IMG/VR virus record: IMGVR_UViG_2531839193_000016
Source of the DNA: a virus
Lineage: Duplodnaviria > Heunggongvirae > Uroviricota > Caudoviricetes
Length of the DNA: 64,000 nucleotides
Strand: one strand, 5' to 3'
In this document: positions 59,257-62,200 of the stretch, in pieces
How the letters are laid out: every line of letters starts with the position of its first letter
How positions within the stretch are numbered: the first letter of the stretch is position 1
Position numbers: made by a program

Positions 59257-62200
59257 TCATCCTCTCCGGATAAGGCACGGGCGTAATCTGCCAGTGTTTT
59301 CTTGTTGGTTGCTGCACCATCCTCTTCCTGCAGGCTCGCCAGCAGTGCACTGAGATCCAGCTGCCAGCGGGAAATACTGATGCGCAGCGCCGCCAGCGCA
59401 TAAACGAAGCAGTCGAGCGCCTCATTGCGTCGCTTTTTGCTGTCCCACAGTATTTTTTTCCTGCCATCCACCCATTTTTCGACCTGCTCTTCAGCAGTCA
59501 GCTGCTGCGCTTCGGTCAGATCAAAAATATCCGGGTTATTCGGGAAGTGAACGGCACCGGGAAGCGGTTCATCCCCTTCCGGCGTCAGTGTGAAGCGGTT
59601 ATAAATCTGCTCTTTCGCGGTATCCGTACCGATTTCGGTAAGGTAAACCCCGTTTTTGTTTCGCTTACGAGGCATGCTGGCCACCGGCTTACCGTAGACG
59701 GATGCCCCTTTAATGGGGATCACCCGGAACAGCCCATGCTTTTTCGAGCGTTCATACACAATGGTCGGGTCAATCCCGCCAATATCCCAGCAGATACGGG
59801 ATATCGACATTTCTGCACCATTCCGGCGGGTATAGGTTTTATTGATGGCCTCATCCACACGCAGCAGCGTCTGTTCATCGTCGTGGCGGCCCATAATAAT
59901 CTGCCGATCAATCAGCCAGCTTTCCTCACCCGGCCCCCATCCCCATACGCGCATTTCGTAGCGATCCAGCTGGGAGTCGATACCGGCGGTCAGGTAAGCC
60001 ACACGGTCAGGAACGGGCGCTGAATAATGCTCTTTCCGCTCTGCCATCACTTCAGCATCCGGACGTTCGCCAATTTTCGCCTCCCACGTCTCACCGAGCG
60101 TGGTGTTTACGAAGGTTTTACGTTTTCCCGTATCCCCTTTCGTTTTCATCCAGTCTTTGACAATCTGCACCCAGGTGGTGAACGGGCTGTACGCTGTCCA
60201 GATGTGAAAGGTCACACTGTCAGGTGGCTCAATCTCTTCACCGGATGACGAAAACCAGAGAATGCCATCACGGGTCCAGATCCCGGTCTTTTCGCAGATA
60301 TAACGGGCATCAGTAAAGTCCAGCTCCTGCTGGCGGATGACGCAGGCATTATGCTCGCAGAGATAAAACACGCTGGAGGGGTCATCCGGCGTCCATTTGA
60401 GGCCAAACGGCGTCTCTTTGTCGCCAAATTTAAGATACTGCTCCTCCCCGCAGTGCGGGCAGGCAACATGAAAACGCATAAAATGCGGGGATTCACTGGC
60501 TGCACGCTCAATCTGGCAGGTGCCTCTCACTTTGGGCGTGGAGCCACGGATGGACTTTGGCCAGACCGAGCCTTCAATACGTTTGTCGCCAAGGAACGTC
60601 GGAGAGCCTTCCTGTTCAATATCCTCATCAAAGGCAGCAAGTTCATCATAACCCGCCACATCCACCGACTTTTCACGGTAGTTTTTTGCCGCTTTACCGC
60701 CCAGGCACCAGAAGCCACGACCATTGGAAAAACGCTTCATAGTGAGCGTGTTATCCCGGTGCTTTTTGCCATACCACGGAGCCAGCGCCAGCAGCGACGG
60801 AATATCGCGGATGGTCGGCTCAACGTGGGTTTTCATAAAGTTCTCGGCATCACCATCCGTCGGCAACCAGATAAGTGTGTTGCGCTGCTTATGCTCTATA
60901 AAGTAGGCATAAACACCCAGCAGCATTTTGGAATAACCGACACGGGCAGACTTCACCACATTCACCTCACGGATGTAGTCGCTGCCCATCGCATTCATGA
61001 TGGCCCGCTGAAAGGGCAGTGTTTCCCAGCGCCCTTCCTGGTATGCGGATTCTTTCGGGAGATAGTAATTAGCATCCGCCCATTCAACGGCGGTCTGTGG
61101 CTCCGGCCTGAACAGTGAGCGAAGCCCGGCGCGGACAAAATGCCGCAGCCTGTTAACCTGACTGTTCGATATATTCACTCAGCAACCCCGGTATCAGTTC
61201 ATCCAGCGCGGCTGCTTTGTTCATGGCTTTGATGATATCCCGTTTCAGGAAATCAACATGTCGGTTTTCCAGTTCCGGAAAACGCCGCTGCACCGACAGG
61301 GGGATCCCGTCGAGAATACTGGCAATTTCACCTGCGATCCGCGACAGCACGAAAGTACAGAATGCGGTTTCCACCACTTCAGCGGAGTCTCTGGCATTTT
61401 TCAGCTCCTGTGCGTCGGCCTGCGCACGCGTAAGTCGATGGCGTTCGTACTCAATAGTCCCTGGCTGGAGATCTGTCTCGCTGGCCTGCCGCAGTTCTTC
61501 AACTTCCCGGCGCAGCTTTTCGTTCTCAATTTCAGCATCCCTTTCGGCATACCATCTTATAACGGCGGCAGAGTCATAAAGCACCTCATTACCCTTGCCA
61601 CCGCCTCGCAGAACGGGCATTCCCTGTTCCTGCCAGTTCTGAATGGTACGGATACTCGCACCGAAAATGTCAGCCAGCTGCTTTTTGTTGACTTCCATTG
61701 TTCATTCCACGGACAAAAACAGAGAAAGGAAACGACAGAGGCCAAAAAGCCCGTTTTCAGCACCTGTCGTTTCCTTTCTTTTCAGGGGGTGTTTTAAATA
61801 AAAACATTAGGTTACGGCGAAGAAGAACGGAAACGCCTTAAACCGGAAAATTGTCATAAATAGCGAAAACCCGCGCGCCTTCCGCCCCGTAACCTGTCGG
61901 ATCGCCGGAAAGGACCCGCAAAATGATAATAATTATCATCTACATGTCACAACGTGCATCTACGCCATCAAACCACGTCAAATAATCAATTATGACGCAG
62001 GTATCGTATTAATTGATCTGCATCAACTTAACGTAAAAACAACTTCAGACAATACAAATCAGCGACACTGAATACAGGGCAACCTCATGTCAACGAAGAA
62101 CAGAACCCGCAGAACAACAACCCGCAACATCCGCTTTCCTAACCAAATGATTGAACAAATTAACATCGCTCTTGTTCAAAAAGGGTCCGGGAATTTCTCA

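What the first reader, a model, noticed from the sequence alone, without database searches (positions are those of the whole stretch)
61866..61900. cos region collinear with lambda but with 5 of 12 cosN positions changed
Flanks on both sides of cosN match the reverse complement of lambda's genome ends closely, yet the 12-nt core reads CGCCTTCCGCCC where lambda, as I recall it, has AGGTCGCCGCCC. Either this prophage uses a different cohesive end or the site has decayed in a cryptic prophage. The lambda comparison is from memory.
Basis: partly seen in the sequence, partly recalled or inferred. Interest (0 to 1): 0.45.

Follow-up and report, generated by a model that had tools for sequence, protein, structure and literature searches.

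The report
Natural variant of lambda cohesive end
The lambda-type prophage here has a genuine but ordinary alternative sticky-end sequence: the five changed bases lie in the half of the cutting site that lambda's packaging enzyme is known not to read, and the same variant recurs in many other phages.

Summary
In phage orientation (minus strand), window 61876-61887 reads GGGCGGAAGGCG where lambda has GGGCGGCGACCT. The differences are at cohesive-end positions 7, 8, 9, 10 and 12. The rest of cos matches lambda: cosQ, the CG pairs at both nick sites, bases 1-6, and R3/R2/R1 of cosB.

This is not decay. The identical 12-mer occurs in 88 fetched loci with 22 different left flanks and 12 right flanks. 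These include the complete N15-like phage PhiR46_1, 78 IMG/VR contigs, and 159 of 5426 complete E. coli genomes (lambda core: 4474). The long-dead K-12 prophages DLP12 and Qin still keep the exact lambda core.

The terminase has not co-evolved. Prophages encoding TerL (641/641) and TerS (181/181) identical to the window's carry the lambda core.

Feiss and colleagues have published that positions 7-12 vary naturally (N15, phiD326, Gifsy-1, mEp213) and barely affect cutting. The bottom-strand nick is placed by TerS bound at cosB.

The allele is therefore one more member of a known series and of low interest. Neither the virion ends nor the inducibility of this prophage has been tested.

The parts
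61876..61887 (-). cosN cohesive-end core. Phage sense is 5'-GGGCGGAAGGCG, where lambda has GGGCGGCGACCT. Positions 1-6 are identical to lambda; positions 7, 8, 9, 10 and 12 differ.
61874..61875 (-). Conserved CG dinucleotide just outside the bottom-strand nick (cohesive-end bp 13-14).
   Evidence: Its conservation in lambda-like phages is stated in PMC4669245.
61888..61889 (-). Conserved CG dinucleotide just outside the top-strand nick (bp -2 and -1).
61911..61917 (-). cosQ, the packaging-termination element (GGGTCCT), at the lambda spacing of 24-30 bp upstream of the nick.
   Evidence: Sequence, identical to lambda. The 7-bp definition of cosQ is from the literature; its exact sequence is from my own knowledge.
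61823..61838 (-). cosB R3, the critical TerS binding site (bp 50-65, AGGCGTTTCCGTTCTT), identical to lambda.
   Evidence: alignment. The R3 coordinates come from PMC9026076.
61764..61779 (+). cosB R2 (CTGTCGTTTCCTTTCT), inverted relative to R3 and R1.
   Evidence: The R2/R1 16-bp repeat is described in PMC9026076.
61723..61738 (-). cosB R1 (CTGTCGTTTCCTTTCT).
61153..61698 (-). Nu1, the small terminase subunit TerS (181 aa). Its start codon is at cohesive-end bp 190 (191 in lambda).
   Evidence: 100% identical to TerS of phage PhiR42_1, which has the lambda core. Also identical to TerS of the lambda-core prophages L274, L276 and L278.
59253..61178 (-). A, the large terminase subunit TerL (641 aa), the enzyme that nicks cosN.
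   Evidence: Domains GpA_ATPase and GpA_nuclease. The identical 641-aa protein is encoded next to lambda-core cos sites. It differs by 3 residues from the TerL beside a lambda-proper cos in L141.
38580..59256 (-). The rest of the lambda-type late operon: W, B, C/Nu3, D, E, FI, FII, Z, U, V, G, T, H, M, L, K, I, J, lom, stf, tfa.
   Evidence: tblastn with PhiR42_1 proteins gives full-length matches at 85-100% identity. The exceptions are H, split at an A7 run near 50262, and lom, which is truncated.

Best explanation
This is a working lambda-type cos site carrying a naturally occurring alternative allele of the right half of cosN.

Mechanism, from established lambda biology. TerS (Nu1) binds R3/R2/R1 of cosB with IHF and anchors TerL (gpA). 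TerL nicks the two strands 12 bp apart. The top-strand nick depends on TerL reading bp 1-6 and the flanking CG. The bottom-strand nick is positioned by the cosB anchor, so it is almost blind to bp 7-12.

Positions 7-12 are therefore free to change. Here they read AAGGCG instead of CGACCT. Virion DNA would then carry 5'-GGGCGGAAGGCG on the left end and 5'-CGCCTTCCGCCC on the right end. These anneal with each other after injection just as lambda's ends do. GC content is the same (10/12) and the predicted Tm is nearly the same.

Shown here: the sequence, the intact cos architecture, the recurrence of the allele, and terminase identical to that of lambda-core phages. Inferred: that the site is cut at these positions, and that this particular prophage still packages DNA.
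For: 1. All cos elements other than bp 7-12 are lambda-like and at lambda spacing.

2. The exact 12-mer recurs in many backgrounds.
- It is in the complete N15-like phage PhiR46_1, which has all head and tail genes intact and lists ECOR13 as host.
- It is in Ravinvirus YDC107_1, in roughly 46-kb plasmid prophages, and in the att-lambda prophage of APEC E14033.
- It is in 78 IMG/VR contigs.
- It is in 159 of 5426 complete E. coli genomes, against 4474 for the lambda core.
- It is in Escherichia sp. E1V33.

3. It sits on 22 distinct left flanks and 12 distinct right flanks, including phage-21-type cosB with 21-type TerS.

4. Prophages L274, L276 and L278 encode TerL (641/641) and TerS (181/181) identical to the window's but have the lambda core. 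L275 has the same proteins with the variant core. No TerL residue is diagnostic of the variant among 50 TerLs.

5. With the left half fixed, bp 7-12 shows a whole series of alleles: AAGGCG 48, N15-type CGTCCG 42, CGACCG 8, CAGACG 5, GAGCGG 3, CAGCGG 3, and the Gifsy-1-type CAGCGT. CAGGCG, one step from this allele, also occurs.

6. PMC4669245 reports that differences at bp 7-12 are common among lambda-like phages (N15 and phiD326 at 9 and 12; Gifsy-1 at 8, 9 and 11). It also reports that right-half mutations have minimal effect on cos cleavage and that lambda TerL uses the lambda and N15 cosN equally well. PMC12315714 gives a further allele, from mEp213/LLS.

7. GC content is 10/12 and Tm is 46.3 versus 47.8 C for lambda.
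Against: No virion-end data exist for any phage with this core. No phage record or IMG/VR contig starts at the core.

Viability of PhiR46_1 is inferred from its GenBank record (complete genome, propagation host given). The paper describing it is not held.

The prophage in this window may itself be inactive. An IS2 lies about 950 bp upstream of cos, an IS1 abuts tfa, lom is truncated, and the early region lies outside the window.

Experiments so far have tested only one- and two-base right-half changes with lambda terminase, not five at once.
Confidence: 0.82

Rival explanations
1. The site is a decayed, non-functional cosN in a cryptic prophage.
For: The element is bordered by insertion sequences: IS2 from about 62830 and IS1 at 37069-37572. 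H is frameshifted in this assembly and lom is truncated.
Against: The identical five-base haplotype occurs in 88 fetched loci on many flank backgrounds and in a complete phage genome. Decay would scatter changes, but here 5 of 13 local differences fall in the 6 positions known to be tolerant. Bases 1-6, the CG flanks, cosQ and R1-R3 are untouched. The cryptic K-12 prophages DLP12 and Qin, which have lost nearly all structural genes, keep the exact lambda core. The H frameshift is an A7 run where close relatives have A8, and it is unique to this draft; relatives have an intact 853-aa H.
Confidence: 0.03
2. The variant core marks a distinct nicking specificity, with a terminase that has co-evolved to cut AAGGCG rather than CGACCT.
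For: One TerL position (466, Ile versus Thr) is enriched among variant-core loci, at 5/6 versus 7/44.
Against: TerL and TerS proteins 100% identical to the window's sit next to lambda-core cos sites. Ile466 also occurs with the lambda core. The literature shows lambda TerL does not discriminate right-half alleles. Residues 509 and 515 are the wild-type N and E; from memory, these are where specificity-extending mutations of gpA map.
Confidence: 0.03
3. The allele is cut normally but is maintained by selection as a cohesive-end compatibility type. Five mismatches with lambda-type ends would stop hybrid chromosomes from circularising, for example those packaged from one prophage's cos to a neighbouring prophage's cos. 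That would partly isolate these phages from lambda-core relatives.
For: A two-base end mismatch already lowers viable yield about fourfold. Alleles are mostly discrete multi-base haplotypes with few intermediates. AAGGCG was the most frequent allele in the scan restricted to position 12 other than T.
Against: No test of selection was possible. The pattern is equally expected from neutral drift at unread positions, followed by spread through recombination in the conserved flanks. One-step neighbours do exist (CAGGCG; CGACCG relative to lambda). The allele is rare, at about 2% of cos sites.
Confidence: 0.12
4. The variant is a sequencing or assembly artefact of this draft contig.
For: The contig shows three probable homopolymer frameshifts, in H, IS2 orfB and the IS110-family transposase.
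Against: The changes are substitutions, not homopolymer indels. The same core and flanks are present in independent complete genomes and phage records.
Confidence: 0.01

Closest known systems
Bacteriophage lambda cos (cosQ-cosN-cosB) with terminase gpNu1/gpA
   Same: cosQ, the spacing, the CG nick flanks, bp 1-6, bp 13-70 including R3, and R2 and R1 are the same. The Nu1 start is at bp 190 versus 191. A TerL beside a lambda-proper cos (L141) differs from the window's by 3 residues out of 641.
   Different: Cohesive-end bp 7, 8, 9, 10 and 12 differ (AAGGCG versus CGACCT). Rotational symmetry of the 16-bp cosN falls from 10 to 8 bp (my count from the sequence). There is a single A>C change at bp 38 and a few changes in the I1 region.
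cosN alleles of N15 and phiD326 (GGGCGGCGTCCG)
   Same: Variation is confined to the right half, and G at position 12 is shared. For this allele, experiments show it is cut equally well by lambda TerL and that virions are viable.
   Different: N15 differs from lambda at 2 positions, this allele at 5. N15 itself has a different cosB (a single R3) and a TerL only about 65% identical to lambda's. The N15-like phages that carry the present allele (PhiR46_1, YDC107_1) have a lambda-type terminase and cosB.
cosN alleles of Gifsy-1 (changes at bp 8, 9, 11) and mEp213/LLS (GGGCGGCGCGCT)
   Same: These are further documented right-half variants in lambda-like phages. The Gifsy-1-type CAGCGT was recovered here in a Citrobacter genome.
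   Different: The bases changed are different. None of these published alleles is the AAGGCG haplotype.

Membership tests
lambda-like cos site (12-nt 5' cohesive ends, Feiss definition) | Two nick positions 12 bp apart, each flanked on the outside by a conserved 5'-CG | tested here: met
   The sequence reads ...TTACG|GGGCGGAAGGCG|CGCGGG.... The conservation of the CG flanks is stated in PMC4669245.
lambda-like cos site (12-nt 5' cohesive ends, Feiss definition) | [quoted passage not shown] | tested here: met
   Identical to lambda, N15 and the other alleles.
lambda-like cos site (12-nt 5' cohesive ends, Feiss definition) | cosQ termination element upstream at lambda spacing | tested here: met
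   GGGTCCT lies at 61911-61917, 24-30 bp from the nick as in lambda.
lambda-like cos site (12-nt 5' cohesive ends, Feiss definition) | cosB with R3 at bp 50-65, followed by inverted R2 and then R1, ahead of the TerS gene | tested here: met
   R3 is at 61823-61838 and identical to lambda. R2 is at 61764-61779 and R1 at 61723-61738. The Nu1 ATG is at bp 190.
lambda-like cos site (12-nt 5' cohesive ends, Feiss definition) | Adjacent lambda-family terminase (Phage_Nu1 TerS; GpA_ATPase + GpA_nuclease TerL) | tested here: met
   TerL differs by 3 residues of 641 from the TerL beside a lambda-proper cos in L141.
lambda-like cos site (12-nt 5' cohesive ends, Feiss definition) | Virion DNA actually carries 12-nt 5' overhangs generated at this site | not testable with these tools
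   No record or contig begins at the core. This needs sequencing of virion DNA ends.
lambda cohesive-end allele (ends able to anneal with lambda's own ends) | bp 7-12 = CGACCT | tested here: not met
   bp 7-12 read AAGGCG, so only 1 of 6 positions matches. The site belongs to the lambda-like cos family but is not the lambda allele.

The most novel reading that the evidence does not exclude
AAGGCG may be more than drift. It could be a widespread second cohesive-end type in Escherichia, shared by integrated lambda-like prophages, N15-like plasmid prophages and 21-type remnants. Its five mismatches with lambda-type ends would stop hybrid chromosomes from circularising. It would then act as a packaging-level compatibility barrier among otherwise freely recombining lambdoid phages.
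Probability: 0.12. Interest if true: 0.4.

Novelty: new member of a known kind. Interest (0 to 1): 0.15.

Why it matters
It matters little for biology at large. The finding confirms, with a more extreme natural example (5 of 6 right-half positions changed), the published rule that lambda terminase reads only the left half of cosN.

There are three practical points.
- Annotation pipelines and cos-finding tools that search for the literal lambda 12-mer will miss about 2% of lambda-type cos sites in E. coli.
- End-ligation or cosmid-style manipulations of such phages need matching ends.
- A five-base end mismatch offers a natural test of how much mismatch cohesive-end annealing tolerates.

Tried and rejected
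- **Literature search for the exact 12-mer or its complement.** It found only unrelated plant and Streptomyces papers.
- **The source paper for the PhiR phages and the Vahanian et al. 2017 cosN survey.** Neither is held. I therefore could not confirm plaque formation by PhiR46_1 or check whether this allele is already tabulated.
- **Direct terminus evidence.** I looked for a phage record or IMG/VR contig starting at the core and found none.
- **Terminase co-variation.** This was rejected: identical proteins occur with both cores.
- **A PICI-satellite origin for a second right-flank class.** It turned out to be phage-21-type cosB with 21-type TerS, not an rpp-type PICI cos. The Fillol-Salom 2019 text gives no cos sequences.
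- **A small inversion.** The reverse complement of AAGGCG is CGCCTT, which matches lambda's CGACCT at 4 of 6 positions. That is within chance (about 4%) and was not pursued.
- **The H frameshift as evidence of decay.** It is an A7 run where relatives have A8, and it is unique to this draft.
- **Identifying the organism.** The window is not in the E. coli complete-genome set (best match 97.9%). It equals AKNC01000068.1 of GCA_000268045.1, whose organism name the tools do not give.

Full report
**What is there.** The window's minus strand around the finding reads ...GCGGGTCCTTTCCGGCGATCCGACAGGTTACG GGGCGGAAGGCG CGCGGGTTTTCGCTATTTATGACAATTTTCCGGTTTAAGGCGTTTCCGTTCTTC.... The 12-nt core occupies 61876-61887. 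Lambda's own core was checked rather than recalled: in the lambda derivative DE3 the annotated 'cos site' is GGGCGGCGACCT. Alignment with lambda/DE3, PhiR63_1, 2H10 and an Stx1 phage shows the window differs only at cohesive-end positions 7, 8, 9, 10 and 12. The flanks are 95-97% identical over 451 bp to dozens of lambda-like phages. Five of the 13 differences from PhiR63_1 fall in one 6-nt stretch, with P about 2e-4 after correcting for position.

**Anatomy.** Everything else that defines a lambda cos is in place.
- cosQ (GGGTCCT) is at 61911-61917.
- A CG dinucleotide lies outside each nick.
- Bases 1-6 read GGGCGG.
- R3 (bp 50-65) is at 61823-61838 and identical to lambda.
- R2 is at 61764-61779 (inverted) and R1 is at 61723-61738.
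- The Nu1 start codon is at bp 190.

Downstream lie Nu1 (61698-61153), A (61178-59253) and the full lambda late operon through tfa (38580). Matches to the proteins of phage PhiR42_1 are full-length at 85-100% identity.

There are two blemishes. lom is truncated. The tape-measure gene H is split at an A7 run near 50262. The window is 100% identical to draft contig AKNC01000068.1 (GCA_000268045.1). Three closely related complete genomes have A8 at that run and an intact 853-aa H. The contig has similar frameshifts in two IS transposases. The H break is therefore most likely a homopolymer sequencing error.

An IS2 starts about 950 bp upstream of cos, at about 62830, and an IS1 abuts tfa. In the close relative CP032523.1 the lysis genes lie just beyond that IS2. 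The early region is outside the window, so the activity of this particular prophage cannot be judged.

**Is the core a one-off?** It is not.
- A 46-nt probe designed so that only the variant core can seed a match hits 159 of 5426 complete E. coli genomes. That is 170 places, 16 of them on plasmids, many of which are about 46 kb. The lambda-core probe hits 4474 genomes at 8393 places.
- The probe hits two phage records: PhiR46_1 and YDC107_1.
- PhiR46_1 is a complete N15-like telomere phage. It has telL/telR, ParAB, a primase, a full intact set of lambda-type head and tail genes, and E. coli ECOR13 given as host.
- YDC107_1 is classified as a Ravinvirus.
- The core is also in the att-lambda prophage of APEC E14033, in 78 IMG/VR contigs, and in Escherichia sp. 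E1V33.

Across 88 fetched loci the identical 12-mer sits on 22 different 30-nt left flanks and 12 different right flanks. One right-flank class has phage-21-type cosB repeats and a 21-type TerS. As a control for decay, the K-12 cryptic prophages DLP12 and Qin have lost almost all structural genes yet still carry the exact lambda core.

**Does the enzyme differ?** It does not. The window's TerL sequence is widespread. Of six fetched places encoding exactly that 641-aa protein, five have the lambda core and one (CP032523.1) has the variant core. In three of the lambda-core places TerS is also 181/181 identical to the window's. Among 50 aligned TerLs, no residue is diagnostic of the variant core. 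The TerL beside a lambda-proper cos (L141) differs from the window's at only 3 residues. The same terminase is therefore paired in nature with both cores.

**How it most likely works.** Feiss and colleagues showed that cosN is functionally asymmetric. Left-half changes such as G2C are damaging, while right-half changes (bp 7-12, for example C11G) have minimal effect. The reason is that TerL nicking of the bottom strand is positioned by TerS bound at R3 of cosB (PMC4669245; PMC9026076). They also showed that lambda TerL uses the lambda and N15 cosN equally well. They state that natural differences at bp 7-12 are common: N15 and phiD326 differ at 9 and 12, and Gifsy-1 at 8, 9 and 11. A further allele, GGGCGGCGCGCT, is inferred for mEp213 and LLS (PMC12315714).

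My own scans, with the left half held fixed, recover a whole series of alleles.
- In IMG/VR with position 12 not T: AAGGCG 48, the N15-type CGTCCG 42, CGACCG 8, CAGACG 5, GAGCGG 3, CAGCGG 3, and several singletons including CAGGCG, one step from the present allele.
- In one-genome-per-species data: lambda 15, N15-type 5, CAGACT 2, Gifsy-1-type CAGCGT 1, variant 1.

The present core keeps C11, the CG flanks, 10/12 GC and a near-identical predicted Tm (46.3 versus 47.8 C). The expected products are virion ends 5'-GGGCGGAAGGCG and 5'-CGCCTTCCGCCC, which anneal with each other normally. What is shown is the sequence, its recurrence and the identity of the enzyme. Cutting at these exact positions is inferred.

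**Comparison with the known and novelty.** The site meets every testable defining feature of a lambda-like cos. It fails only 'bp 7-12 equal to lambda', which the literature does not treat as defining. It is a further allele in a documented series, with more changes than the published examples I could read (2 or 3). Other five-change alleles, such as GAGCGG, also exist in the databases.

The exact 12-mer does not appear in any searchable paper in a phage context. The dedicated survey, Vahanian et al. 2017 (Virology 509:140), is not held and may already list it. I therefore file the allele as a new member of a known kind, of low interest.

**What remains open.** No virion-end data exist for this core. 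The five-base combination has not been tested with lambda terminase. The one reading with some novelty is that a five-mismatch end acts as a compatibility barrier between lambda-core and variant-core phages, given that a two-base mismatch already costs fourfold in yield. That reading is neither supported nor excluded.

Noticed in passing
window 1-28414: The left 28 kb of the window is the right-hand part of a Mu-like transposable myovirus prophage, running from portal and head genes through sheath, tape measure and baseplate to com/mom at the end. It is 99.8% identical to a prophage inserted at a different chromosomal site in E. coli AF39.
   Followed up: partly
window about 50262 (H), 28757-29963 (IS110-family transposase), 62968-63872 (IS2 orfB): Three otherwise conserved genes are each split by a frameshift. 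The one in H is an A7 run where three related complete genomes have A8. The window equals the draft contig AKNC01000068.1, so these are probably homopolymer sequencing errors rather than pseudogenes.
   Followed up: partly
window 42340-42816: The lom homologue stops after 160 codons, against 199 in phage PhiR42_1. lom is not needed for phage growth.
   Followed up: no
window 32142-37572: Between the two prophages lie mlaA, a yfdC-like transporter gene, a P4-type integrase (34399-35592), an AraC/YdeO-like regulator fragment and an IS1. The lambda-type late region abuts this IS1 by its tfa end, so no normal attR or b-region is visible.
   Followed up: no
L305 around 6663, and 17 other IMG/VR loci: The same variant core GGGCGGAAGGCG also occurs next to a phage-21-type cosB (three CATGTCGG repeats) and a 21-type small terminase, in Qin/DLP12-like remnants. 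The allele therefore crosses packaging-specificity groups.
   Followed up: partly
L008 26400-37660 (E. coli APEC E14033): In a lambda-like prophage carrying the variant core, the major capsid gene E is split by an 11-kb element. The element has an integrase, a primase, SSB and its own capsid and decoration genes. It resembles the published helper-embedded, capsid-forming PICI satellites.
   Followed up: no
L289 (PhiR46_1, whole record): PhiR46_1 and YDC107_1 are N15-like linear-plasmid phages (telL/telR, ParAB) whose terminase and head and tail genes are lambda-type. Their TerL is 99.2-99.4% identical to the window's, whereas N15's own TerL is about 65% identical to lambda's. This is a clear module swap.
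   Followed up: partly
L145, L147, L151 (genome-contig hits): An exact lambda cos with lambda-proper flanks occurs in assemblies of Raphidiopsis, Aeromicrobium and an Alicyclobacillus 'plasmid'. This is most likely lambda or cosmid DNA contamination of those assemblies.
   Followed up: no
window 61850 (cohesive-end bp 38): There is a single A>C change in the cosN-R3 spacer (GACAATTTT instead of GAAAATTTT). It is shared with CP032523.1 and 11 fetched loci, all with the variant core, and marks one sub-lineage of the allele. Spacing is unchanged.
   Followed up: partly
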